This document shows, in pieces, positions 1 to 11,195 of a stretch of DNA of 11,195 nt. The stretch lies in IMG/VR virus record IMGVR_UViG_648276671_000015; one strand, 5' to 3'. A program made the translations under genes and the position numbers. Positions within the stretch are counted from its first letter, which is position 1; each line of letters begins with the position of its first letter. The notes beneath the pieces are model-generated. The model did not search any database. It was given only the letters and a program-made list of their open reading frames with translations, and had not been told where the DNA came from. This DNA comes from a virus. Its lineage: Duplodnaviria; Heunggongvirae; Uroviricota; Caudoviricetes.

Positions 1-417
1 TTGTTTATATGTTTTAAAGGTTCCATAATCCGGGGCTGGTAATCCGGCATCGTTTGTGTTTCCTCTTTTGATAATGTCAGTGCCACTATTTACCCAGCTT
101 TCATCAAAATAGAAATTAATCGTTGCATCAGTCACAATCGTGGATCTTGACGGTAATCCATGAGCATGATCCTCCGTTGCATACCCCTGAATACTTAAAA
201 TAGAGCGACCTGTATCAATCCCCCGCCCGTCATCCCAGCCACGAATAAATTCACCGCGTAAATCAGGCAATTTATTAGTCGGGTAAGCCTTTGTCAGTTC
301 CGGGTATTCTTCAGCAGAAAAAGCCGCACCATTGCATTTCAGCCAGCCTGTTGGCGGAGTGGCTGAAGGCCACGGAACAGGCACCCCAACGGGTAATGCC
401 GAACCTTCTCCCAAACC
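1..417 (-). CDS. Partial tail-fibre variable (receptor-binding) cassette in silent inverted orientation; reads leftward from the crossover site and runs off the window start
   Basis: Minus-strand frame is open for about 139 codons from the gix-like site to position 1. Translation (...INVGLGEGSALPVGVPVPWPSATPPTGWLKCNGAAFSAEEYPELTKAYPTNKLPDLRGEFIRGWDDGRG...EDHAHG...) carries the tail-collar/tail-fibre motifs (GWLxCNG, YPEL, LPDLRGxF, HxH) seen in Mu S, P1 S and e14 StfE variable parts. It is opposite in strand to the tail operon and abuts the invertase, as for Mu Sv'. Confidence 0.6.
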
Positions 418-431
418 AACGTTTATGAAAA
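406..431. promoter_or_regulatory. gix/hix/pix-type 26-bp recombination (crossover) site for the adjacent serine invertase
   Basis: TTCTCCCAAACC-AA-CGTTTATGAAAA: two imperfect 12-bp inverted half-sites around a central AA, matching about 9/12 per half to the recalled hixL/gix consensus (TTCTTGAAAACC-AA-GGTTTTTGATAA). It lies 56 bp upstream of the invertase start and inside the tail-fibre cassette reading frame. Confidence 0.55.
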
Positions 432-486
432 TGCAGAGATAATGGCTAACTGGCATCATCCCCGGTTTTTATTCAGGGGATTGATC

Positions 487-1053
487 ATGCTTATTGGCTA
501 TGTACGCGTGTCAACAAATGACCAGAACACCGATTTGCAACGTAATGCACTGAACTGCGCGGGATGTGAGCGGATTTTTGAGGATAAAATCAGTGGCACT
601 AAGTCCGACAGACCGGGGCTTAAAAAACTGCTCAGGACACTATCGGCAGGAGACACTCTGGTTGTCTGGAAGCTGGACAGGTTGGGGCGCAGTATGCGGC
701 ATCTTGTTACGCTGATAGAAGAGTTGCGCCAGCGTGGCGTGAATTTCCGAAGCCTGACTGACAGTATTGATACCAGTACCCCAATGGGCCGTTTCTTTTT
801 TCATGTTATGGGTGCTCTGGCTGAAATGGAACGCGAACTGATAGTTGAACGTACCAGGGCAGGGCTGGCTGCAGCTCGTGCCAAAGGCAGAGTAGGTGGA
901 CGCCGTCCTAAGTTGACCACCGAACAGTGGGCACAGATTGGGCGTTTACTTGAGGCCGGAGAATCAAGACAGCGTATTGCACTGATTTTTGATGTAGGCG
1001 TTTCTACTATTTATAGAAAATTTCCGGCAAATAAGAGCAATGAATCTCCCTGA
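487..1053 (+). CDS. pin: Serine DNA invertase of the Pin/Gin/Hin/Cin family (188 aa)
   Basis: Starts MLIGYVRVSTNDQNTDLQ with the catalytic serine in the YVRVSTxDQ motif, then LVVWKLDRLGRS and GRFFFHVMGALAEMERELI, and a C-terminal helix-turn-helix; near-identical in motif layout to e14 PinE / Mu Gin. GGGGA Shine-Dalgarno 8 nt upstream of the ATG at 487. The tracked ORF start at 442 is an upstream in-frame extension. Confidence 0.92.
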   Translation: MLIGYVRVSTNDQNTDLQRNALNCAGCERIFEDKISGTKSDRPGLKKLLRTLSAGDTLVVWKLDRLGRSMRHLVTLIEELRQRGVNFRSLTDSIDTSTPMGRFFFHVMGALAEMERELIVERTRAGLAAARAKGRVGGRRPKLTTEQWAQIGRLLEAGESRQRIALIFDVGVSTIYRKFPANKSNESP

Positions 1054-1101
1054 ATCAGCATTATTTTGATTATCCCTGCAAGCAGACAAATACCGTCATT
1101 T

Positions 1102-1119
1102 TGTGTGAATAACGGCACA
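1102..1119 (+). promoter_or_regulatory. Candidate Ogr-dependent late promoter element (TGT-N12-ACA) for the FI tail operon
   Basis: TGTgtgaataacggcACA has the exact TGT-N12-ACA dyad of P2 late promoters and sits about 75-95 bp upstream of the FI start at 1196, consistent with a position near -55. The -10 element is not clearly identifiable. Confidence 0.4.
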
Positions 1120-1195
1120 ACTGCGCTTAGCTGTTTGTCAGGCACAATCACTTCAACATAGGGCGAAGCCTAATCCAATCAGGAGGTTCGCCACT

Positions 1196-2355
1196 ATGGC
1201 TCAGGATTACCACCACGGGGTGCGCGTTGTTGAAGTCAACGAAGGCACCCGATCCATTACCACGGTGAGCACCGCCATCGTGGGTATGGTCTGCACGGGC
1301 GATGATGCCGATGCAAAAATGTTTCCTCTTAATAAACCCGTGCTGATCACTGATGTGCTGACTGCCAGCGGTAAAGCGGGTGAGTCAGGCACGCTGGCCC
1401 GTTCGCTGGATGCCATCGCTGACCAGGCAAAACCCGTGACCGTTGTTGTGCGTGTGCCGCAGGGTGAAACGGAAGAAGAAACCACGACCAATATCATCGG
1501 CGCAGTGACTGCTGAAGGTAAAAAACAGGCATGAAAGCTCTGTTATCTGCCCAGTCACAGCTCGGCGTTAAACCGCGCATTCTCGGCGTGCCAGGCCATG
1601 ATAACAAAGCCGTTGCGACTGAGTTGCTGAGCGTGGCGCAAAGCCTGCGTGGGTTTGCTTACCTGTCAGCGTATGGCTGCAAGACAGTGCAGGAGGCGAT
1701 CACTTACCGTGAAAACTTCAGTCAGCGTGAAGGAATGCTGATCTGGCCCGACTTTACTGGCTGGGACACGGTGCTGAATGCCGAAGCAACGGCTTATGCC
1801 ACCGCCCGTGCGCTTGGTCTGCGCGCCAAAATTGACGAGCAGACCGGATGGCACAAAAGCCTGTCCAACGTGGGCGTTAACGGTGTCACCGGAATTTCTG
1901 CTGATGTGTTCTGGGATCTGCAGGACCCGGCAACCGATGCAGGTCTGCTGAACCAGAACGACGTCACCACGCTTGTGCGTAAAGACGGTTTCCGCTTCTG
2001 GGGTTCCCGCTGCCTGAGTGATGACCCGCTCTTTGCCTTCGAAAACTACACCCGCACGGCACAGGTGCTGGCGGACACAATGGCAGAAGCGCACATGTGG
2101 GCGGTGGACAAACCGCTGAACCCGTCGCTGGCCCGCGACATTATCGAAGGTATCCGCGCCAAAATGCGCAGCCTGGTCAGTCAGGGCTATCTCATTGGGG
2201 GTGATTGCTGGCTGGACGAGTCGGTGAACGATAAAGACACCCTGAAAGCCGGAAAACTCACCATCGACTACGACTACACGCCAGTGCCGCCACTTGAAAA
2301 TCTGATGCTGCGCCAGCGCATCACCGATCAGTACCTGGTGAATTTCGCCAGCTAG
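1196..2355 (+). pseudogene. P2 gpFI-like contractile tail sheath protein, frame broken by an apparent 1-bp loss in an A6 run (1520-1525); two ORFs 1196-1534 and 1531-2355
   Basis: N-terminal ORF (MAQDYHHGV...) and C-terminal ORF (...KPRILGVPG...GFRFWG...[13 protein letters not shown]) together span a P2 FI-like sheath. Adding one A to the run restores ...[10 protein letters not shown]..., which lines up with the P2 FI junction as I recall it (...GQYTGLKAML...). AGGAGG Shine-Dalgarno at 1181-1186. Confidence 0.8.
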
Positions 2356-2376
2356 GTCAGCGCGTAAGGGGACAAC

Positions 2377-2892
2377 ATGGCTTTACCACGTAAATTAAAA
2401 CATCTGAACTTGTTTAACGACGGGAACAACTGGCAGGGGATCGTTGAGTCGCTGACGCTGCCGAAATTCACCCGCAAATATGAGAAGTATCGCGGCGGCG
2501 GTATGCCGGGGGCGGTGGATGTGGATCTGGGACTGGATAACAGTGCATTGGATACAGAATTTTCCATTGGTGGTACTGAAGTGCTGCTGTTTAAGCAGAT
2601 GGGCAAAGCCACGGTGGATGGCATCCAGTTGCGCTTTACCGGCTCTATCCAGCGTGACGATACCGGAGAAGTGCAGGCCGTGGAGCTTGTGGTGCGTGGA
2701 CGTCACAAAGAAGTGGATTCCGGCGAGTGGAAGACGGGCGAAAGCAACACCACCAAAGTGACCAGTACCAACAGCTACGCGAAGCTGACCATCAATGGTG
2801 AGGTGCTCTATGAAGTGGACCTTATCAACATGGTGGAAATTGTGGACGGTGTGGACCTGATGGAAGCGCACCGCAACGCCCTCGGCCTCTGA
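2377..2892 (+). CDS. P2 gpFII-like tail tube protein (171 aa)
   Basis: Size and position immediately after the sheath gene match P2 FII (about 172 aa); Shine-Dalgarno AAGGGGA upstream; sequence has the conserved tube-protein character (MALPRKLKHLNLFNDGNNWQG...). Confidence 0.85.
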   Translation: MALPRKLKHLNLFNDGNNWQGIVESLTLPKFTRKYEKYRGGGMPGAVDVDLGLDNSALDTEFSIGGTEVLLFKQMGKATVDGIQLRFTGSIQRDDTGEVQAVELVVRGRHKEVDSGEWKTGESNTTKVTSTNSYAKLTINGEVLYEVDLINMVEIVDGVDLMEAHRNALGL

Positions 2893-2903
2893 TATATCTG
2901 AAC

Positions 2904-2921
2904 GGCGCGGGATACCGCGCC
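2904..2921 (+). other. GC-rich stem-loop in the FII-E intergenic region (7-bp stem GGCGCGG/CCGCGCC, loop GATA), no U-tract
   Basis: Perfect inverted repeat read directly from the sequence, 12 nt after the FII stop codon and 26 nt before the E start. Confidence 0.5.
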
Positions 2922-2946
2922 AGAACCCAATTTACAGGACAGCAAA

Positions 2947-3249
2947 ATGAGCGATAAACAGACTGAAAAGACCATTCAACTGGATACCCCCATCAAGCGC
3001 GGTAAAACAGAAATCACCGAAATTGTGCTGCGTAAACCGCAGTCCGGTGCGCTGCGCGGTACACGCCTGCAGGCGATTATGGATATGGATGTGAACGCGA
3101 TGATGACCGTGATCCCCCGCATCTCCAGCCCGGCACTGACTGCACAGGAAATTGCAGAGATGGACCCGGCAGATCTCACTGCCATGTCGGTTGAGGTTGT
3201 CACTTTTTTGTTGAAGAAGTCGGTGCTTGCCGGTTTACCGACAGCCTGA
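2947..3249 (+). CDS. P2 gpE-like tail assembly chaperone (100 aa)
   Basis: Small acidic ORF between tube and tape-measure genes with a TTTTTTG slippery heptamer near its 3' end, as in P2 E and the lambda G analogue; AGGA Shine-Dalgarno 8 nt upstream. Confidence 0.85.
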   Translation: MSDKQTEKTIQLDTPIKRGKTEITEIVLRKPQSGALRGTRLQAIMDMDVNAMMTVIPRISSPALTAQEIAEMDPADLTAMSVEVVTFLLKKSVLAGLPTA

Positions 3250-3383
3250 CGGTTGACGATCTGGTGGCAGATATCGCCACCATTTTTCACTGGCCGCCAT
3301 CCGTTACTGACGTTATGCCGCTGACCGAAGTGCTGGAATGGCGGTATAAAGCGATTCAGAGAAGCGGGGCCAACGATGAGTGA
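2947..3383 (+). CDS. E+E' frameshift fusion product (about 145 aa) made by -1 slippage at 3204-3210
   Basis: The -1 frame after the heptamer reads ...VEEVGACRFTDSLTVDDLVADIATIFHWPPSVTDVMPLTEVLEWRYKAIQRSGANDE and ends overlapping the tape-measure start, the same layout and size as P2 E+E' (about 142 aa). Confidence 0.65.
3204..3210 (+). other. Programmed -1 ribosomal frameshift slippery heptamer T-TTT-TTG (E to E+E')
   Basis: Heptamer is in the X-XXY-YYZ register of the E frame (codons ACT-TTT-TTG = T-F-L); the -1 frame is open from here to a TGA at 3381-3383. Confidence 0.65.
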
Positions 3384-6300
3384 TAACAACCTGCGCCTGC
3401 AGGTCATTCTTAATGCGGTTGACAAACTCACCCGCCCATTCCGTGCTGCACAGGTCAGTTCGAAAGAGCTGGCTGGCGCAATCAGAAACTCCCGTGACGC
3501 ATTAAAGCAACTCAATCAGGCGGGTAACAGCCTGGAAAAATTTCGCAAGCTGCAGGCCGATAACAAGAAGTTAGGCGACAGGCTGAACTATGCCAGACAG
3601 AAGGCTAATTTGCTTAGCTCTGAGCTGGAGGCGATGGAACAACCATCACAACGGCACCTTGTGGCTTTAGGTCGGCAAACACTGGCAGTCCAACGCCTGG
3701 AAGAGCAACAAAAATATTTGCAGAAGCAAACGGCGCTTGTGCGTGCAGAACTGTACCGGGCGGGAATTTCTGCGAAAGATGATGCGGGAGCAACTGCCCG
3801 TTTAGCCCGTGAAACATCACGTTATAACCAGGAATTGTCGAAACAGGAGGTGCGGCTGAAGCGACTGGGGGAAGCTCAGCGCAGGATGAATGCAGCGCGT
3901 GCCAGTTATGCCCGTTCGCTGGAGGTGCGCGATCGTATTGCAGGAGCCGGAGCCACTACCACGGCTGCAGGGTTGGCAATGGGGACGCCAGTGATGGCGG
4001 CAGTAAAAAGCTATACCAGCATAGAAGATGCCATGAAAGGTGTGGCAAAGCAGGTCAATGGTCTGCGTGACGATAATGGCAACCGCACTGCACGTTTTTA
4101 TGAAATGCAGGATGCCATCAAGGCTGCCAGCGAACAGTTGCCGATGGAAAACGGTGCTGTGGACTTCGCTGCACTGGTTGAAGGTGGTGCGCGCATGAAC
4201 GTCGCAAACCCTGACGACAGCTGGGAAGACCAGAAACGTGATCTGCTGGCCTTCGCCAGCACAGCAGCAAAGGCGGCAACAGCCTTTGAGCTGCCAGCGG
4301 ATGAACTGTCAGAAAGTCTGGGGAAAATCGCCCAGCTCTACAAAATCCCTACCCGCAATATTGAACAGCTCGGTGATGCGCTGAACTATCTGGATGATAA
4401 CGCCATGTCGAAAGGGGCAGACATTATTGATGTTATGCAACGTCTGGGCGGTGTGGCGGACCGTCTGGATTATCGTAAAGCGGCGGCGCTGGGTTCCACC
4501 TTTCTGACACTGGGCGCTGCGCCGGAGGTTGCAGCCAGTGCAGCAAACGCGATGGTGCGTGAATTGTCCATTGCCACCATGCAGAGCAAGAGTTTCTTTG
4601 AAGGGATGAATCTGCTGAAACTCAATCCTGAAGTGATTGAAAAGCAGATGACGAAGGATGCGATGGGAACCATCCAGCGCGTGCTGGAGAAGGTGAACGC
4701 ACTGCCGCAGGACAAGCGTCTGTCTGCCATGACCATGTTGTTTGGTAAAGAGTTTGGCGATGACGCGGCGAAACTGGCAAACAACCTGCCGGAACTGCAG
4801 CGCCAGTTAAAGCTGACAGCGGGCAATGATGCGCTCGGTTCCATGCAGAAAGAATCCGACATCAACAAGGACTCACTTTCTGCTCAGTGGTTGCTGGTCA
4901 AAACCGGAGCGCAGAACACCTTCAGCAGCCTGGGCGAAACGCTGCGCCAGCCGCTGATGGATATTCTGTACACGGTGAAAAGCGTCACGGGGGCGTTGCG
5001 TCGCTGGGTGGAAGCTAACCCGGAACTGACGGGCACACTGATGAAAGCGGCGGCTGTTGTGGCTGCGGTTACCGTGGGCCTCGGCACCTTAGCGGTGGTG
5101 TTAGCTGCAGTGCTGGGGCCGCTGGCAGTCATCCGTCTGGGGTTCTCTGTGCTGGGTATCAAAACGTTACCTTCCGTTACGGCAGCAGTAACTCGAACCA
5201 GCAGCGCGTTGTCCTGGCTGGCTGGCGCACCACTGGCACTGCTGCGACGCGGGCTTGCTTCATCCGGCAACGCCGCAGGTTTACTTACTGCGCCGTTGTC
5301 GTCTTTGCGCCGCACGGCATCACTGACGGGAAATGTCCTGAAAACTGTAGCAGGTGCGCAGGTTGCACTTTTGCGGTCTGGATTATCCGGTTTACGTGCT
5401 GTTGCTGTGATGTTTATGAATCCTCTGGCGGTACTGCGCGGTGGACTGGCCGCCGCAGGCACGGTGCTGCGAGTACTGGCATCTGGTCCACTGGCGATGC
5501 TGCGCGTTGCCCTGTATGCCGTATCTGGTCTGTTAGGTGCTCTGCTCAGTCCGATAGGTCTTGTGGTTACTGCACTGGCGGGCGTGGCGCTGGTTGTCTG
5601 GAAATACTGGCAACCCATCACCGCATTTCTTGGTGGCGTGGTGGAAGGATTCAAAGCGGCGGCAGGTCCCGTCAGTGCAGCATTCGAACCGCTTATGCCC
5701 GTGTTCCAGTGGATTGGCGACAAAGTACAGGCGTTGTGGGGCTGGTTTACTGATCTGCTGACGCCCGTTAAGTCGACCTCTGCCGAACTGCAGAGTGCAG
5801 CGGCAATGGGGCGGCGATTCGGGGAGGCACTGGCGGAAGGGCTGAATATGGTCATGCATCCGCTGGACTCCCTGAAATCCGGCGTTTCCTGGTTGCTGGA
5901 GAAGCTCGGCATTGTCAGTAAAGAGGTCGCAAAGGCAAAACTGCCGGAAAGCGTGACGCGTCAGCAACCTGCGACGGTGAATGCAGACGGTAAAGTGATG
6001 ATGCCATCGGGTGGTTTTCCATCATGGGGATATGGCTTTGCGGGGATGTATGGCAGCGGCGGGTATATCCCGCGCGGGCAGTTTGGCATCGTCGGTGAAA
6101 ACGGGCCGGAAATTGTTAACGGCCCGGCAAATGTGACCAGCCGGAGAAATACAGCTGCACTGGCTGCCGTTGTTGCCGGAATGATGGGCGTTGCTGCCGC
6201 GCCAGCAGAGCTTCCACCGTTGCACCCTTTGGCACTTCCCGCGAAAGGTGGAGAAGCAATTGTGAGTCGCGCAGCCACTGTGCCGCTCGTTCAACGGATT

Positions 6301-6453
6301 GAGGCACCGACGCAGATCATCATTCAGACGCAGCCAGGACAAAGTGCGCAGGATATTGCGCGGGAGGTGGCACGCCAGCTTGATGAACGTGAACGCAGGC
6401 TGAAGGCAAAAGCCAGGAGTAACTACAGCGATCAGGGGGGATACGACGCATGA
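3376..6453 (+). CDS. Tail tape measure protein, P2 gpT-like (1025 aa)
   Basis: Very long ORF right after E/E'; coiled-coil-rich N-terminal half, central hydrophobic periodic repeats, Gly-rich C-terminal region; follows the chaperone gene as tape-measure genes always do. Confidence 0.9.
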   Translation: MSDNNLRLQVILNAVDKLTRPFRAAQVSSKELAGAIRNSRDALKQLNQAGNSLEKFRKLQADNKKLGDRLNYARQKANLLSSELEAMEQPSQRHLVALGRQTLAVQRLEEQQKYLQKQTALVRAELYRAGISAKDDAGATARLARETSRYNQELSKQEVRLKRLGEAQRRMNAARASYARSLEVRDRIAGAGATTTAAGLAMGTPVMAAVKSYTSIEDAMKGVAKQVNGLRDDNGNRTARFYEMQDAIKAASEQLPMENGAVDFAALVEGGARMNVANPDDSWEDQKRDLLAFASTAAKAATAFELPADELSESLGKIAQLYKIPTRNIEQLGDALNYLDDNAMSKGADIIDVMQRLGGVADRLDYRKAAALGSTFLTLGAAPEVAASAANAMVRELSIATMQSKSFFEGMNLLKLNPEVIEKQMTKDAMGTIQRVLEKVNALPQDKRLSAMTMLFGKEFGDDAAKLANNLPELQRQLKLTAGNDALGSMQKESDINKDSLSAQWLLVKTGAQNTFSSLGETLRQPLMDILYTVKSVTGALRRWVEANPELTGTLMKAAAVVAAVTVGLGTLAVVLAAVLGPLAVIRLGFSVLGIKTLPSVTAAVTRTSSALSWLAGAPLALLRRGLASSGNAAGLLTAPLSSLRRTASLTGNVLKTVAGAQVALLRSGLSGLRAVAVMFMNPLAVLRGGLAAAGTVLRVLASGPLAMLRVALYAVSGLLGALLSPIGLVVTALAGVALVVWKYWQPITAFLGGVVEGFKAAAGPVSAAFEPLMPVFQWIGDKVQALWGWFTDLLTPVKSTSAELQSAAAMGRRFGEALAEGLNMVMHPLDSLKSGVSWLLEKLGIVSKEVAKAKLPESVTRQQPATVNADGKVMMPSGGFPSWGYGFAGMYGSGGYIPRGQFGIVGENGPEIVNGPANVTSRRNTAALAAVVAGMMGVAAAPAELPPLHPLALPAKGGEAIVSRAATVPLVQRIEAPTQIIIQTQPGQSAQDIAREVARQLDERERRLKAKARSNYSDQGGYDA

Positions 6454-6935
6454 TGATGGTGCTGGGATTGTACGTGTTTATGCTGCGCACCGTTCCGTAT
6501 CAGGAACTGCAGTATCAACGCAGCTGGCGACATGCGGCAAACAGTCGGGTAAACCGACGTCCGTCCACGCAGTTTCTGGGACCGGAAAACGACATGCTGA
6601 CGCTTTCCGGTGTTCTTATGCCGGAGATAACAGGCGGCAGGCTGTCGTTGCTGGCACTGGAGCAGATGGCAGAACAGGGGAAAGCATGGCCCCTGATTGA
6701 AGGCAGCGGCACGATTTACGGCATGTATGTGATTGAGGGACTGAATCAGACTAAAACGGAGTTTTTCCGCGACGGTATGCCGCGCCGGATTGAGTTCACC
6801 CTGTCGCTCAAACGAGTGGATGAATCCCTGTCCGATATGTTCGGTGATCTCAGTGCGCAACTGAATAATCTGCAGGACACGGCAACGTCTGCCTTAAGCG
6901 ATATCAGTAAAACGGTGGGAGGGCTGCTGTCGTGA
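6450..6935 (+). CDS. P2 gpU-like tail protein (161 aa)
   Basis: ATGA overlap with the T stop; GGGGGG Shine-Dalgarno 9 nt upstream; begins MMMVLGLYVFMLRT..., resembling the P2 U N-terminus as recalled (MMLALGMFVF...); size matches P2 U (about 159 aa). Confidence 0.85.
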   Translation: MMMVLGLYVFMLRTVPYQELQYQRSWRHAANSRVNRRPSTQFLGPENDMLTLSGVLMPEITGGRLSLLALEQMAEQGKAWPLIEGSGTIYGMYVIEGLNQTKTEFFRDGMPRRIEFTLSLKRVDESLSDMFGDLSAQLNNLQDTATSALSDISKTVGGLLS

Positions 6936-8032
6936 ATTTCAGCTCTGAACTGCTTAACAAAGGCAACAAAACTCCCGCATTCAGCATCAGTATTGAGGGC
7001 AGGGATATCACCACTGTGCTGGATAACCGCCTGATGAGTTTGACGCTGACGGATAACCGGGGCTTTGAAGCGGACCAGCTTGATCTGGAGCTGGATGACG
7101 CTGACGGAAAAATCGTGCTGCCGCGCCGTGGTGCGGTTATTACGCTGGCGCTGGGCTGGAAGGGGCAGCCGCTTTTCCCGAAAGGGGCATTCACGGTGGA
7201 CGAGATTGAACACACTGGCGCACCGGACCGCCTGACTATCCGGGCGCGAAGTGCTGATTTTCGGGAAACGCTGAATACTCGCCGTGAAAAATCGTGGCAC
7301 AAGACCACTGTCGGGGAAGTGGTGAAGGAAATAGCCGCGCGTCACAAGCTGAAGATGGCACTGGGTAAAGACCTGTCGGATAAGCCCGTGGAACATATAG
7401 ACCAGACTAATGAGAGTGACGGCAGTTTTCTGATGCGGCTGGCGCGCCAGTACGGTGCTATTGCGTCGGTGAAAAATGGCAATCTGTTATTCATTCGGCA
7501 GGGACAGGGTAAAAGCGCCAGCGGTAAACCACTGCCGGTTATCACTATCACACGTAAGGACGGCGACAGTCACCGCTTTACCCTGGCAGATCGCGGAGCT
7601 TACACGGGCGTAATTGCCAGCTGGTTGCATACCCGCGAACCCGCGAAGAAAGAAAGCACCACGGTGAAGCGTAAGCGCAGGACTAAGAAGCAGAAGAAAG
7701 AGCCGGAAGCGAAGCAGGGCGATTACCTGGTGGGTACGGATGAAAACGTGCTGGTACTTAATCGCACCTATGCCAATCGGAGTAACGCCGAACGGGCAGC
7801 GAAAATGCAGTGGGAACGCCTGCAACGCGGCGTTGCGTCATTCTCGCTACAACTGGCGGAAGGTCGGGCAGATCTCTACACGGAAATGCCAGTGAAAGTC
7901 AGTGGTTTTAAACAGCCGATAGATGATGCGGAATGGACCATTACGACTCTGACACATACCGTCAGCCCGGATAACGGTTTTACAACCAGTCTGGAGCTTG
8001 AAGTGAGGATTGATGATTTCGAAATGGAATGA
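6932..8032 (+). CDS. P2 gpD-like tail protein (366 aa), GTG start
   Basis: GTGA start/stop overlap with U; GGAGGG Shine-Dalgarno; motifs (TLTDNRGFEADQLDLELDD, IRARSADFRETLNTRREKSWH, Lys-rich linker, WTIT..H) typical of P2 D. Confidence 0.85.
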   Translation: MNFSSELLNKGNKTPAFSISIEGRDITTVLDNRLMSLTLTDNRGFEADQLDLELDDADGKIVLPRRGAVITLALGWKGQPLFPKGAFTVDEIEHTGAPDRLTIRARSADFRETLNTRREKSWHKTTVGEVVKEIAARHKLKMALGKDLSDKPVEHIDQTNESDGSFLMRLARQYGAIASVKNGNLLFIRQGQGKSASGKPLPVITITRKDGDSHRFTLADRGAYTGVIASWLHTREPAKKESTTVKRKRRTKKQKKEPEAKQGDYLVGTDENVLVLNRTYANRSNAERAAKMQWERLQRGVASFSLQLAEGRADLYTEMPVKVSGFKQPIDDAEWTITTLTHTVSPDNGFTTSLELEVRIDDFEME

Positions 8033-8122
8033 TTCTTCGCAATGGAGAACTTTTAAGTTTGCAAAATGGAATAATGCGGTATCATTATTGTGAATTTAGC
8101 AAAAATGGGGAGAACTCGAAAA

Positions 8123-8341
8123 ATGATGATTTGCCCACTATGTGGAAGTGCCGCCCATACTCGCAGCAGTTTTCAGGTATCTTCATTGACCAAAGAGCGT
8201 TACAACCAGTGCCAGAACATTAACTGCAGCCATACTTTTGTTACCCATGAAACTTTTGTTCGTTCGATTGCAACGCCAAAAGAGTCAAATCCGGTTCAGC
8301 CGCATCCAATGAAATCAGGACAGGTGGCGCTCTCTCTTTGA
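8123..8341 (+). CDS. ogr: Ogr-type zinc-finger late-gene transcriptional activator (72 aa)
   Basis: MMICPLCGSAAHTR...YNQCQNINCSHTF has the C-x2-C...C-x4-C zinc-binding pattern and the size of P2 Ogr (72 aa). The tracked ORF start at 8090 is an upstream extension; the ATG at 8123 has GGGGA about 11 nt upstream. Confidence 0.85.
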   Translation: MMICPLCGSAAHTRSSFQVSSLTKERYNQCQNINCSHTFVTHETFVRSIATPKESNPVQPHPMKSGQVALSL

Positions 8342-8576
8342 CGCTGCCGCCATTTTGTCGCCATCGTTAAAAAACAGTGCTTCTAACATCATGATTTTAA
8401 AAGGCATAAATTTTAGGCAACAAAAAACCCACCAACCTTGAACCGAAATGGCGGGGTTGATGGGCTCCACAAAATGGGGACATCAAAGAAAAGCAGTGGC
8501 ATTAATTAAGACTGATGCCCTGCGGAAAAGTTCTGCGGTTGTGCAAAAAAATTTCATTTTCAGGGCAACTTCAGTT

Positions 8577-10262
8577 TTATCCTAATCCTGGCCATACCAT
8601 GACGATGATTGTCCCTGCCAGCGTCAGCAGGACGTTGGCGATTGCGTAAGTGCCCGCATAGCCCAACGCCGGGATGTTACTGCGAGCTGTATCACTGATG
8701 ATCTCCATTGCCGGCGCGCAGGTGCGTGCGCCCATCATTGCGCCGAACAACAGTGCGCGGTTCATTCGCAATACATAAGCACCGAACAAGAAACAGATAA
8801 CCACGGGCACCAGACTGACAATCAATCCGGCAATCAACATTTGACCGCCAATCGCGCCCAGGCCGTTATTAATACCGCTACCAGCGCTCAGACCAACGCC
8901 TGCCATAAACACCATCAAGCCGAACTCCTTCACCATGCTTAATGCACCCTGCGGAATGTAACCGAAGGTCGGGTGGTTAGCACGCATAAAGCCCAGCATA
9001 ATTCCGGCGAATAACAACCCGGCAGCGTTCCCCATACCGAAACTGAATGTGCTGAACTGGAAGGTGATCATCCCGATCATTAGCCCAATCACAAAGAAGG
9101 CGCAGAATGCCAGCAAGTCAGTGACCTGGCTGTGAATCGAGATAAAGCCGATGCGATCGGCGATGGTTTTTACGCGGCGGGCATCGCCGCTGACTTGTAA
9201 AACGTCACCTTTGTTAAGCACGACGTTGTCATCAATCGGCATCTCAATCTGGCTACGTATGACGCGGTTAAGGAAGCAACCGTGATCGGTCAACTTCAGT
9301 TGTGCCAGGCGTTTGCCAACAGCGTTATGGTTTTTAACGACCACTTCTTCAGTGACGATACGCATGTCGAGAAGGTCACGATCGAAAACTTCTTTGCCAT
9401 TACGGAAACTGGGATCGAGTCGGGCGTGGGCGTCGGGGTAGCCTACCAACGCTATTTCATCGCCCATTTGTAGCACGGCATCACCGTCTGGATTTGCCAG
9501 AATCCCGTTACGCCGAATACGTTCAATGTAGCAGCCGGTTTGTCGATAAATACCCAGTTCACGCAGATTTTTGCCGTCGGTCCAGGCTACCAGCTCCGGG
9601 CCGACGCGGTAGGCGCGGATCACCGGCAAATAAACTTTACGGTTGGCATCTGTGTCCAGGCCACGTTCGCGGGCGATTTGCTGGGCGCTGGTCTGTAAGT
9701 CCTGATGCTGCAATTTCGGCAAGTAACGCGCACCAACAATCAAACTCACCAGACCGATTAAATAGGTTAAGGCATACCCGAGGCTCAGATTATCCAGTGC
9801 CAGTGAGAGCTGCCTGCTTTCCATGCCGGAATGACGCAGTGTATCGCCAGCACCGACCAAAACCGGTGTTGACGTCATAGAGCCTGCTAACATACCGGCC
9901 GTCAGGCCAATATCCCAGCCAAACAGCTTACCTAACCCTAAGGCGATCACCAGCGCACTGCCAACCATCACCAGTGCTAACATTAGGTAATTTTTCCCAT
10001 CGCGAAAAAAAATGGAAAAAAAGTTCGGTCCGGCTTCGACCCCGACGCAGAAAATAAACAGCATAAAGCCAAGATTAAGCGCGTCGGTGTTAATGCTGAA
10101 ATGTTGTTGGCCTAATAACAGCGATACGACTAAAACGCCAATGGAATTACCCAGTTGGATCGAACCAAGTCGTAATTTCCCGAGACATAGCCCAAGCGCG
10201 AGGACCACAAATAATAACAGAATGTAATTCCCATTTAACAATTCGGCGACGTTTATATTCAC
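8577..10262 (-). CDS. ybjL: YbjL, putative AAE-family transporter (561 aa; two transmembrane halves flanking cytoplasmic TrkA-C-like domains), GTG start
   Basis: Full-length 561-aa membrane protein matching E. coli YbjL in length and sequence as I recall it; gene neighbourhood (ybjL-ybjM-grxA) is the conserved E. coli arrangement. Confidence 0.9.
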
Positions 10263-10531
10263 GGAGGCTAACTTCTTGTTTACTAGTAAGCTGTTGAAAG
10301 AAATGGTAATTTACGATAATGTTTTTTACCAGAATTCAGGGCGCAGATTCATTCAGCGCACCTAAACGATAGTAAAGTAACAATATATTTTACTAGTGTA
10401 ATCACATTAGGTATCAACGGCTATATGAATTGCGTTGGCCTATATTAGCATGGAATGCGAAGCGGCTTTATCTTACTGAACGCCACACTGGCGAAAAATG
10501 TGTTCGATAGACGCAGTGTCAGGAGGAACGA

Positions 10532-10908
10532 GTGAAACATAAACAACGTTGGGCGGGGGCAATCTGCTGTTTTGTCCTCTTCATTGTGGTGTGCCTTTTT
10601 CTGGCGACGCATATGAAAGGCGCTTTTCGGGCTGCCGGGCATCCTGAAATCGGCTTGCTGTTTTTCATTCTTCCTGGAGCAGTTGCCAGCTTCTTTTCAC
10701 AGCGTAGAGAAGTCCTGAAACCTCTGTTTGGCGCAATGCTGGCGGCACCCTGTTCAATGCTTATTATGCGGCTGTTTTTTCACCGACGCGCTCATTCTGG
10801 CAAGAGCTGGCATGGTTATTAAGTGCGGTGTTCTGGTGTGCGCTGGGGGCACTGTGTTTCTTATTTATCAGTAGTTTGTTTAAACCACAGCACAGAAAAA
10901 ATCAATAA
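10532..10908 (+). pseudogene. ybjM: ybjM inner-membrane protein, frame broken by an apparent 1-bp loss in a T6 run (10775-10780); tracked ORF ends early at 10822 (96 aa)
   Basis: GTG start with AGGAGGA Shine-Dalgarno. After the T-run, the +1 frame reads SPTRSFWQELAWLLSAVFWCALGALCFLFISSLFKPQHRKNQ* and ends at 10906-10908 directly before the terminator hairpin. Adding one T gives exactly 125 aa plus stop, the length I recall for E. coli YbjM. Confidence 0.7.
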
Positions 10909-10927
10909 AGCCCTCAACGCGAGGGCT
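10909..10927 (-). terminator. Rho-independent terminator hairpin for grxA, shared by convergent ybjM
   Basis: AGCCCTC-AACGC-GAGGGCT, a 7-bp stem with 5-nt loop, 10 nt past the grxA stop; on the minus strand it is followed by a U-rich tract (plus 10895-10908 is A-rich). Confidence 0.65.
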
Positions 10928-10937
10928 TGTCAGACGA

Positions 10938-11195
10938 TCAGGCGTCCAGATTCTCTTTCACCCATGCAGCAAAATCGGTATAGCCGCCGATATGTTGCTG
11001 ATCGACAAAAATCTGCGGCACGGTTTCTACGGGTTTACCTGCCTTTTGTTGTAGATCTTCTTTAGTGATCCCTTCCGCACGAATATCAACATACTGATAC
11101 TGAAAATCATCGCGTTCATTGCTCAATTTCTCAGCCAGATCTTTTGCACGCACACAGTAAGGGCAACCCGGACGACCAAAAATAACGGTTTGCAT
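10938..11195 (-). CDS. grxA: Glutaredoxin 1 (85 aa), complete; the window ends on its start codon
   Basis: MQTVIFGRPGCPYCVRAKDLAEKL... has the CPYC glutaredoxin active site and the exact length of E. coli GrxA. Confidence 0.95.
   Translation of the reverse strand: MQTVIFGRPGCPYCVRAKDLAEKLSNERDDFQYQYVDIRAEGITKEDLQQKAGKPVETVPQIFVDQQHIGGYTDFAAWVKENLDA

What the first reader, a model, noticed from the sequence alone, without database searches (positions are those of the whole stretch)
8342..8576. Prophage-host junction between ogr and the 3' end of ybjL; candidate P2-type integration site
ogr is the last phage gene before attR in an integrated P2-type phage, and ybjL is a conserved chromosomal gene converging on it. 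The att core and exact boundary must lie in this 235-bp AT-rich gap. I could not find a tRNA-like sequence here, so integration appears to be intergenic or at the 3' end of ybjL rather than in a tRNA. I do not recognise this as one of the classical P2 loci, but cannot rule that out from memory.
Basis: inference. Interest (0 to 1): 0.5.

Follow-up and report, generated by a model that had tools for sequence, protein, structure and literature searches.

The report
Prophage junction inside the rybB gene
The gap between the phage gene ogr and the host gene ybjL is the right-hand end of an integrated P2/186-family prophage, but the phage sits in the tail of the small regulatory RNA gene rybB, a well-documented and very common E. 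coli integration hotspot, so the finding is real but ordinary.

Summary
The prophage/host boundary lies inside that gap.

The sigma-E-dependent sRNA gene rybB (8500->~8421, minus strand; Rfam RF00110, 104 bits) and its promoter fill the host part.

Phage-specific DNA ends at 8405. A 27-bp att core (8406-8432, ATAAATTTTAGGCAACAAAAAACCCAC) overlaps the last 5 bp of the rybB terminator stem and its U-tract.

Four lines of evidence define the core:
- empty sites in near-isogenic E. coli;
- attL/attR pairs in E. coli W and K_EC180;
- an uninterrupted attP in Klebsiella phage KP12;
- a probe of all complete E. coli genomes, where about 78% are empty and about 22% are split with a 25-26 nt duplication.

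The recombination module is of the coliphage 186 type, not the P2 type. Two tandem arm sites (TGCCGCCATTT/TGTCGCCATCG) start 3 nt after the ogr stop. The linked integrase is about 55% identical to 186-like integrases and about 38% to P2/Wphi-type ones.

Integration at rybB is already published (Archer 2011, "Rybb*W/B/Cr"; Hochhauser 2023, hotspot #29).

Verdict: correct junction, wrong target description, already known.

The parts
1..8405 (+). Right-hand part of a P2/186-family prophage: invertible tail-fibre segment end, Din-type invertase, tail sheath, tube, E/E', tape measure, U, D, ogr and the P arm.
   Evidence: Pfam hits. Positions 215-11195 are 97.3% identical and collinear with the E. 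coli W prophage between rcdA and ybjL.
8123..8341 (+). ogr, the late-gene activator and last phage gene before attR.
   Evidence: PF04606 Ogr_Delta, E=5e-22. Translation. P2 (ogr) and 186 (gene B) have the same layout, with this gene directly before attP.
8342..8405 (.). Phage-derived P arm of attR. It is absent from empty sites and present in attP of Klebsiella phage KP12.
   Evidence: Alignments. About 98% identical to Klebsiella phages 4LV2017 and KP12.
8345..8366 (+). Two tandem 11-bp integrase arm-type sites of the 186 type (TGCCGCCATTT at 8345, TGTCGCCATCG at 8356).
   Evidence: Regex and consensus scan. They match the 186 consensus YAYCGCCAYTY annotated in NC_001317 and tgccGCCActt in PMC3448106. 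The same tandem recurs in the P' arm, inside the 3' end of int, in K_EC180, W and KP12 (family D4).
8384..8396 (-). Weak IHF-like site (AATCATGATGTTA, 1 mismatch to WATCAANNNNTTR) between the arm sites and the core.
   Evidence: This is a consensus match only and is an inference. The position is analogous to the IHF sites annotated in P2 and 186 attP.
8406..8432 (.). 27-bp att core (ATAAATTTTAGGCAACAAAAAACCCAC), shared by attB, attP, attL and attR. Strand exchange must occur within it.
   Evidence: It is a direct repeat at both prophage ends (family D3). It is flanked by P and P' arms in KP12 attP. It is identical in the empty sites of strains 1190 and ST70. In split genomes the attL and attR matches overlap by 25-26 nt.
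8419..8500 (-). rybB, a sigma-E-dependent Hfq-binding sRNA gene. The +1 G is at 8500, the terminator hairpin spans 8466-8428 and the U-tract spans 8427-8422.
   Evidence: Rfam RF00110, 104.1 bits, full length 1-79. The fold is identical to K-12 RybB, -24.6 against -25.2 kcal/mol.
8507..8533 (-). Sigma-E-type promoter of rybB: -35 GAACTT at 8533-8528, a 16-nt spacer, -10 TCTTA at 8511-8507, and +1 at 8500.
   Evidence: Read directly from the sequence. Identical in K-12 except one SNP at 8502. Sigma-E dependence of RybB is taken from the literature (PMC3333887). The motif assignment is an inference.
8577..10262 (-). ybjL, a host aspartate:alanine antiporter-family gene. It is not touched by the integration.
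   Evidence: Pfam hits. Annotations.

Best explanation
The gap 8342-8576 is the attR junction of a temperate P2/186-family (Peduoviridae) phage. The phage integrated by tyrosine-integrase site-specific recombination into the 3' end of the chromosomal sRNA gene rybB, which lies between rcdA (ybjK) and ybjL.

The phage attP has three parts:
- a P arm (here 8342-8405) with two 186-type Int arm sites starting 3 nt after the ogr stop;
- a 27-bp core;
- a P' arm next to int.

The core copies the last 5 bp of the rybB terminator stem, its U-tract and about 15 nt of trailer.

Recombination within the core places the whole prophage downstream of rybB. It rebuilds a complete rybB at attR (8500->~8421) with the same fold. 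A promoterless 3' fragment of rybB is left at attL. There it completes a phage hairpin plus U-run that probably terminates the int operon.

Shown:
- the position of the boundary;
- the identity of the core in attB, attP, attL and attR;
- an intact RybB sequence and fold;
- the type of the arm sites;
- the occupancy frequency.

Inferred:
- catalysis by the linked integrase, with IHF and an Apl-like excisionase;
- the exact strand-exchange points;
- that RybB expression is unaffected.
For: 1. Prophage-free E. coli match only from 8406 rightwards. The closest host backbones, strains 1190 and ST70 (99.7% identical over 8433-11195), have rcdA directly next to rybB-ybjL. Their attB is identical to the window from 8406 on.

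2. In E. coli W and K_EC180 the same prophage type is bounded by a 26-27 nt direct repeat. The copy next to int/rcdA is attL and the copy next to ogr/rybB is attR.

3. Klebsiella phage KP12 carries the uninterrupted ogr - P arm - core - P' arm - int arrangement, that is, attP.

4. A 107-nt empty-site probe is uninterrupted in 4225 of 5422 E. coli genomes. In the rest it is split into parts 1-66 and 41/42-107, so 25-26 nt are duplicated. In 1115 genomes ogr lies next to ybjL exactly as here.

5. rybB is confirmed by Rfam at 104 bits. Its fold is unchanged; the single stem change (T to C at 8432) gives a U.G wobble.

6. The arm sites match the 186 consensus and not the P2 TGTGGACA type. The integrase of the W prophage has Int_N and Phage_integrase domains. 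It is about 55% identical to 186-like integrases and about 38% to L-413C/P2-type ones.

7. Published: rybB is listed as an insertion site of P2-like prophages in E. coli W, B and Crooks (PMC3032704). It is also hotspot #29, occupied by Felsduovirus prophages (PMC10121019).
Against: - The window does not contain attL or the integrase of this particular prophage. The direct repeat and the enzyme are demonstrated only in closely related prophages (97-99% identical junctions).
- Strand-exchange positions were not mapped.
- The tail sheath gene in the window has a 1-nt frameshift. This copy may therefore be defective, or the assembly may contain homopolymer errors.
- RybB expression from the rebuilt gene was not measured.
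- The IHF site is only a one-mismatch consensus match.
Confidence: 0.93

Rival explanations
1. One reading: the phage integrated in plain intergenic DNA or at the 3' end of ybjL, with no RNA gene involved.
For: No tRNA or tmRNA is found. ybjL is the nearest protein-coding host gene. The RefSeq feature tables returned for this region list only protein-coding genes here.
Against: The core is 144 nt beyond the ybjL stop codon. A full-length RybB gene (104 bits) lies between them, and the core overlaps its terminator stem and U-tract.
Confidence: 0.03
2. It is a genuine P2-type system (P2 Int/Cox, TGTGGACA arm sites) using one of the classical P2 attachment loci.
For: The late gene order and ogr are P2-like. 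The literature calls these elements 'P2-like'.
Against: - The P2 attP core is absent from the window at up to 3 mismatches.
- There are no TGTGGACA-type arm repeats; the repeats present are 186-type CGCCA repeats.
- The linked integrase is closer to 186-type integrases (55% against 38%).
- The regulatory genes in E. coli W are CI/CII type, not C/Cox.
Confidence: 0.03
3. The phage genes are ancestral and 'empty' strains have lost them by deletion, so the boundary is a deletion scar and not an att site.
For: Degraded remnants exist at this locus, for example the 12-kb remnant in K_EC180.
Against: - The boundary is precise and identical in thousands of genomes.
- The core is duplicated at both ends.
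- An attP with the P and P' arms joined across the same core exists in a phage record.
- The same junction occurs in Klebsiella and in another Escherichia species.
Confidence: 0.01

Closest known systems
P2-like prophages 'Rybb*W', 'Rybb*B' (carrier of retron Ec86) and 'Rybb*Cr' at the rybB ncRNA site (Archer et al. 2011, PMC3032704); hotspot #29 Felsduovirus prophages (Hochhauser et al. 2023, PMC10121019)
   Same: Same chromosomal site, same gene order and same junction. The window is 97.3% identical and collinear with the E. coli W element from the invertase to grxA.
   Different: There are only allelic differences: the tail-fibre segment at 1-214, SNPs, and a 1-nt frameshift in the sheath gene. 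Nothing differs in kind.
Coliphage 186 attP / attB in the 3' end of tRNA-Ile gene ileY (NC_001317 annotation)
   Same: - The ogr homologue (B) is the last gene before attP.
- Tandem Int arm-type sites of consensus YAYCGCCAYTY lie on both arms.
- The core copies the 3' end of a structured RNA gene, so the gene is rebuilt after integration.
- The integrase is about 55% identical to 186-like integrases.

   Different: - The target is an sRNA terminator, not a tRNA.
- The core sequence is unrelated (27 bp against 36 bp shared).
- No terminator is seen directly after ogr here, whereas 186 has tB.
Phage P2 attP and its E. coli attachment loci (NC_001895 annotation; cyaR/ryeE-associated P2 site and K-12 ogr-D' remnant, PMC3032704 Table 2, PMC3603311)
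   Same: The layout is ogr - P arm - IHF - 27-bp core - P' arm - int. Some P2-family phages also target the 3' end of an sRNA gene (cyaR/ryeE).
   Different: - The core differs (AAAAAATAAGCCCGTGTAAGGGAGATT).
- The arm repeats differ (TGTGGACA).
- The integrase belongs to a different lineage (about 38% identity).
- The excisionase/repressor is Cox/C in P2, against a 186-type CI/CII regulatory region here.
Klebsiella phages 4LV2017 (Elveevirus) and KP12
   Same: ogr, P arm and core are about 98% identical. 4LV2017 has an annotated attR inside the same core, followed by Klebsiella rybB. KP12 shows the joined attP.
   Different: The host genus is different. There are three single-base differences within the core.

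Membership tests
RybB sRNA (Rfam RF00110) | Sequence and structure match to the covariance model above the gathering score. | tested here: met
   104.1 bits against a gathering score of 40, E=4e-21, model positions 1-79 of 79, at 8497-8419 on the minus strand.
RybB sRNA (Rfam RF00110) | Conserved position between rcdA (ybjK) and ybjL, with a rho-independent terminator. | tested here: met
   It lies downstream of ybjL on the same strand, and rcdA is adjacent in empty-site strains. The terminator hairpin plus U6 folds as in K-12.
RybB sRNA (Rfam RF00110) | Sigma-E-dependent promoter. | tested here: inconclusive
   GAACTT-N16-TCTTA lies 6 nt upstream of +1 and is identical to K-12. Sigma-E dependence is known from the literature but was not tested for this allele, which has a SNP at -2.
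Tyrosine-integrase attachment site (attR of an integrated prophage) | A prophage-free allele (attB) exists whose homology starts inside a short core. | tested here: met
   Strains 1190, ST70 and K-12 have empty sites. 4225 of 5422 genomes are uninterrupted.
Tyrosine-integrase attachment site (attR of an integrated prophage) | The core is duplicated as a direct repeat at the other prophage end, next to an integrase gene. | tested here: met
   Met in related genomes (E. coli W, K_EC180) and at population level. It is not testable for this exact genome, because attL lies outside the window.
Tyrosine-integrase attachment site (attR of an integrated prophage) | A joined attP (P arm - core - P' arm) exists in a phage genome. 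| tested here: met
   Klebsiella phage KP12, L004 2813-2977.
Tyrosine-integrase attachment site (attR of an integrated prophage) | Integrase-catalysed exchange at defined positions in the core. | not testable with these tools
   This needs in vitro or in vivo recombination assays.
Phage 186-type recombination module | Arm-type sites of consensus YAYCGCCAYTY / tgccGCCActt as tandem repeats on both arms. | tested here: met
   8345 TGCCGCCATTT has 1 mismatch. 8356 TGTCGCCATCG has 3 mismatches to the consensus and so fell outside the 2-mismatch scan; it was found by the TG[CT]CGCCA regex. The P' arm has TGCCGCCACTT/TGTCGCCACTT in KP12. Consensus.
Phage 186-type recombination module | Integrase of the 186 lineage. 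| tested here: met
   The integrase of the W prophage is about 55% identical to 186-like integrases and about 38% to L-413C/P2-type ones. It has Int_N and Phage_integrase domains. The gene is not in the window.
Phage 186-type recombination module | Target is the ileY tRNA 3' end (the specific 186 attB). | tested here: not met
   The core is unrelated to the 186 common sequence and there is no tRNA. It is therefore the same type of module with a different specificity, not phage 186 itself.
Phage P2 attachment system | P2 27-bp core and TGTGGACA arm repeats. | tested here: not met
   The P2 core has no match at up to 3 mismatches. The best local alignments to P2 attP are at noise level.
P2-family (Peduoviridae) prophage, late region | Gene order FI-FII-E-T-U-D-ogr. 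| tested here: met
   Pfam families Phage_sheath, Phage_tube, Phage_TAC_7, PhageMin_Tail, Phage_P2_GpU, Phage_GPD and Ogr_Delta occur in that order.

The most novel reading that the evidence does not exclude
The 27-bp core may be more than a landing pad. It may be a shared terminator tail (UGGG + U6 + trailer) that completes two different hairpins. At attR it completes the rybB terminator. At attP and attL it completes a phage hairpin (AACCCGUUU-ACAU-AAAUGGGUU + U run) at the end of the int operon. Both junctions would then keep working terminators.

Repeated integration and excision may also have rewritten the 3' end of this core sRNA gene. All four differences between K-12 and the strain 1190-type empty site within a 107-nt probe fall in the 27-bp core, at or next to the positions where attP variants differ.
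Probability: 0.25. Interest if true: 0.3.

Novelty: already known. Interest (0 to 1): 0.12.

Why it matters
It matters mainly for correct annotation. The 'gap' is not empty. It holds rybB, a core envelope-stress regulator. The prophage boundary can be set at 8405/8406, with the core at 8406-8432.

It is a clear example of a temperate phage using the terminator of an sRNA gene the way others use tRNA 3' ends, rebuilding the gene on integration.

The site is occupied in roughly one in five complete E. coli genomes. It is already catalogued as a carrier site for retron Ec86 and other defence systems. Nothing here changes current understanding.

Tried and rejected
- The simple terminator and promoter scan of 8250-8650 found nothing. 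It misses the rybB terminator because the hairpin loop exceeds its 8-nt limit, and it does not model sigma-E promoters. I relied instead on Rfam and folding.
- Escherichia phage vB_EcoM-813R9 looked like a source of an E. coli attP. Its record contains rcdA and ybjJ, so it is a prophage excerpt showing attL, not attP.
- Karlsson et al. 2006 (PMC1482927), on integration sites of P2-like coliphages, is not held. I therefore could not check whether the rybB site is one of their four sites.
It gave no useful view of taxonomic breadth.
- The P2 core search was negative.
- An IHF consensus scan gave only one one-mismatch site, which is too weak to build on.
- I asked whether the core polymorphisms (8410, 8414, 8417-18, 8432) locate the crossover. 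They do not. The closest empty-site relatives already carry the window's core allele. attL/attR allele patterns in W and K_EC180 are inconsistent with a single exchange point.

Full report
**1. What is at the coordinates**

The window carries the late-gene end of a P2-family prophage. Pfam identifies, in order, a resolvase/invertase, tail sheath, tail tube, gpE-type chaperone, tape measure, gpU, gpD and a 72-aa Ogr/Delta zinc-finger protein at 8123-8341 (translation).

A host gene for an Asp-Al_Ex/TrkA_C transporter (8577-10262, minus strand) converges on ogr. It is annotated ybjL in every matching E. coli genome. ybjM and grxA follow it.

The gap 8342-8576 is 235 bp with 42.1% GC, against 52.6% for the window. 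ARAGORN finds no tRNA or tmRNA in the window.

**2.

A scan of the window against Rfam gives one hit: RybB (RF00110), 104.1 bits against a gathering score of 40, full length, at 8497-8419 on the minus strand.

Read on the minus strand, the transcript starts at G8500 (GCCACUGCUUUUC...). It ends in a long hairpin followed by UUUUUU at 8427-8422.

Upstream lies GAACTT (8533-8528), a 16-nt spacer and TCTTA (8511-8507). This is the geometry of sigma-E promoters, and it is identical in K-12 apart from one SNP at 8502. RybB is a sigma-E-activated, Hfq-dependent repressor of outer-membrane protein mRNAs (PMC3333887).

The host part of the 'gap' is thus a complete gene with its promoter.

**3. Where the boundary is**

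- *Prophage-free genomes.* A probe covering 8000-8900 matches 5419 of 5426 complete E. coli genomes. In prophage-free genomes the match begins at window position 8406. Alignment with K-12 DH1 confirms this.
- *Closest host backbones.* Strains 1190 and ST70 are 99.7% identical to the window over 8433-11195. Both have rcdA directly next to rybB-ybjL. Their sequence is identical to the window from A8406 onward and unrelated to the left of it. Phage-specific DNA therefore ends at 8405.
- *Both ends of related prophages.* In E. coli W a complete prophage of about 36.6 kb sits between rcdA and ybjL, with int at the rcdA end and ogr at the rybB end. In K_EC180 a 12-kb remnant has the same ends. In both, a 26-27 nt direct repeat bounds the element (family D3).
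- *attP.* Klebsiella phage KP12 has ogr and int adjacent. Between them lie the P arm (equivalent to window 8342-8405), the core ATAAATTTCAGACAACAAAAAACCCAT and the P' arm seen at attL.
- *The core.* The tract shared by attB, attP, attL and attR is window 8406-8432, ATAAATTTTAGGCAACAAAAAACCCAC.
- *Population check.* A 107-nt probe across an empty site is uninterrupted in 4225 of 5422 genomes. Elsewhere it splits into positions 1-66 and 41/42-107, a duplication of 25-26 nt that coincides with the core. Consistently, 1115 genomes have ogr next to ybjL as here.

**4. Relation of the core to rybB**

The core covers three elements:
- the last five base pairs of the 3' half of the RybB terminator stem (8432-8428, GUGGG on the RNA strand);
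- the U-tract (8427-8422);
- about 15 nt of trailer.

Integration therefore occurs within the 3' end of rybB, and attR carries a complete gene. The window's RybB folds exactly like the K-12 RybB, at -24.6 against -25.2 kcal/mol. The one stem difference (8432 C instead of T, that is A to G in the RNA) gives a U.G wobble.

ybjL is not involved. Its stop codon is 144 nt from the core.

**5. The recombination machinery**

Three nucleotides after the ogr stop codon come two tandem 11-bp repeats, TGCCGCCATTT (8345) and TGTCGCCATCG (8356). The same tandem lies in the P' arm, inside the 3' end of int, in K_EC180, W and KP12 (family D4).

They fit the phage 186 Int arm-type consensus. That consensus is YAYCGCCAYTY in the annotated 186 record and tgccGCCActt in PMC3448106. 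They do not fit the P2 repeat TGTGGACA.

The integrase next to attL in E. coli W has Int_N and Phage_integrase domains. It is 98% identical in the Klebsiella and E. coli relatives, about 55% to 186-like integrases and about 38% to the L-413C/P2 type. The neighbouring regulators are CI and CII, as in 186.

The P2 attP core is absent from the window. The 186 core, the 3' end of ileY, is unrelated.

The element is thus P2-like in its late genes. Its integration module is of the 186 type, with its own specificity for rybB.

A one-mismatch IHF-like site lies between the arm sites and the core (8396-8384, minus strand). This is only a consensus match.

**6. A detail that may be new but is minor**

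On the int-sense strand, attP and attL carry a 9-bp hairpin followed by a U run (AACCCGUUU-ACAU-AAAUGGGUU-UUUUGUU; centroid -9 kcal/mol). Its 3' half lies in the core and equals the 3' half of the rybB terminator.

The core may therefore act as a common terminator tail, so that both the int operon (at attL) and rybB (at attR) stay terminated after integration. This is an inference from folding only. The z-score of the whole 91-nt region against shuffles is not significant.

**7. Is it known?**

Yes.
- Archer et al. 2011 (PMC3032704, Table 2) list 'rybB ncRNA' as the insertion site of P2-like prophages Rybb*W, Rybb*B (which carries retron Ec86) and Rybb*Cr.
- Hochhauser et al. 2023 (PMC10121019) describe hotspot #29. 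It is occupied only by Felsduovirus prophages integrated within rybB, in 109 genomes of their set.
- Bobay et al. 2013 (PMC3603311) discuss sRNA genes such as ryeE/cyaR and ryeB as phage targets.
- The record of Klebsiella phage 4LV2017 annotates an attR inside the same core.

The window is collinear with, and 97.3% identical to, the E. coli W element.

**8. Verdict**

The phenomenon is already documented and very common, with about 21-22% of complete E. coli genomes occupied.

Limits:
- attL and int of this particular prophage lie outside the window;
- the strand-exchange points are unmapped;
- the prophage may be defective, given a sheath frameshift that could also be a homopolymer sequencing error.

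Noticed in passing
window 1196-2355 (A-run at about 1520-1525): The tail sheath gene is split into two ORFs (1196-1534 and 1531-2355). The cause is a 1-nt shorter A-run (A6 against A7) relative to the intact 390-aa gene in E. coli W. Either the prophage is defective or this is a homopolymer sequencing error.
   Followed up: partly
window 10532-11065 (T-run at about 10775-10780): The host gene ybjM is also frameshifted by a 1-nt shorter T-run (T6 against T7), giving ORFs 10532-10822 and 10823-11065. Two homopolymer frameshifts in 11 kb, one of them in a core gene, suggest assembly errors rather than biology.
   Followed up: partly
window 405-431 and 487-1053; L003 27818-27844 / 30644-30670: A Din/Hin-type invertase (the likely start is ATG 487, giving 188 aa) is preceded by a 27-bp crossover-site-like sequence, CTTCTCCCAAACCAACGTTTATGAAAA. 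In E. coli W this sequence pairs as an inverted repeat with a copy 2.8 kb upstream, bounding an invertible tail-fibre segment. Window 1-214 is not homologous to the W copy, so it is a different tail-fibre tip.
   Followed up: partly
window 8502: There is a SNP (T instead of C) at -2 relative to the rybB transcription start, between the -10 element and +1. It is absent from K-12, W, 1190 and ST70 and present in the Klebsiella 4LV2017 flank. Its effect on the promoter is unknown.
   Followed up: no
window 8342-8405: No terminator hairpin follows ogr, and the arm sites begin 3 nt after the stop codon. The annotated P2 and 186 records both have a rho-independent terminator directly after ogr/B. 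Late or ogr transcripts may therefore read antisense into rybB and the 3' end of ybjL during lytic growth.
   Followed up: no
L010 (phage 186) about 3926-3944, compared with window 8415-8432: Phage 186 has AGGCAACAAAAAGGCCAC, overlapping its annotated 'predicted terminator of lysogenic operon' in the P arm. This matches the rybB-phage core AGGCAACAAAAAACCCAC at 16 of 18 positions. It could be a relic of common ancestry or chance similarity between two terminators.
   Followed up: no
L003 about 2110-2150 and L004 about 2920-2950 (P' arm, outside the window): A tandem direct repeat AAAACAATAAGTT (two copies, about 19 nt apart) lies between the core and int. These are candidate excisionase (Apl-like) or IHF binding sites.
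   Followed up: no
L002 (E. coli K_EC180) 2162-14116: The same att site holds only a 12-kb degraded remnant, with truncated D, frameshifted CI, int, an acyltransferase and an FRG-domain gene. The site therefore also accumulates decaying prophages.
   Followed up: no
one search hit H32 (NZ_CM132251.1): A related prophage at this site matches the window in two pieces spanning 12.4 kb instead of 11.2 kb. It is annotated with a reverse-transcriptase-domain protein. This is probably a retron or defence cargo insertion like Ec86 in E. coli B.
   Followed up: no
L006 (Escherichia phage vB_EcoM-813R9, ON470620.1): This 'phage' GenBank record contains the host genes rcdA and ybjJ beyond the integrase. 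It is therefore a prophage excerpt with host flank, not a packaged genome.
   Followed up: partly
(attB core haplotypes): Empty sites fall into a graded series, from 100% to 96.3% identity to the strain 1190 type over 107 nt. All four K-12 differences lie inside the 27-bp core. This could reflect relaxed constraint on the trailer or phage-mediated conversion of the site.
   Followed up: partly
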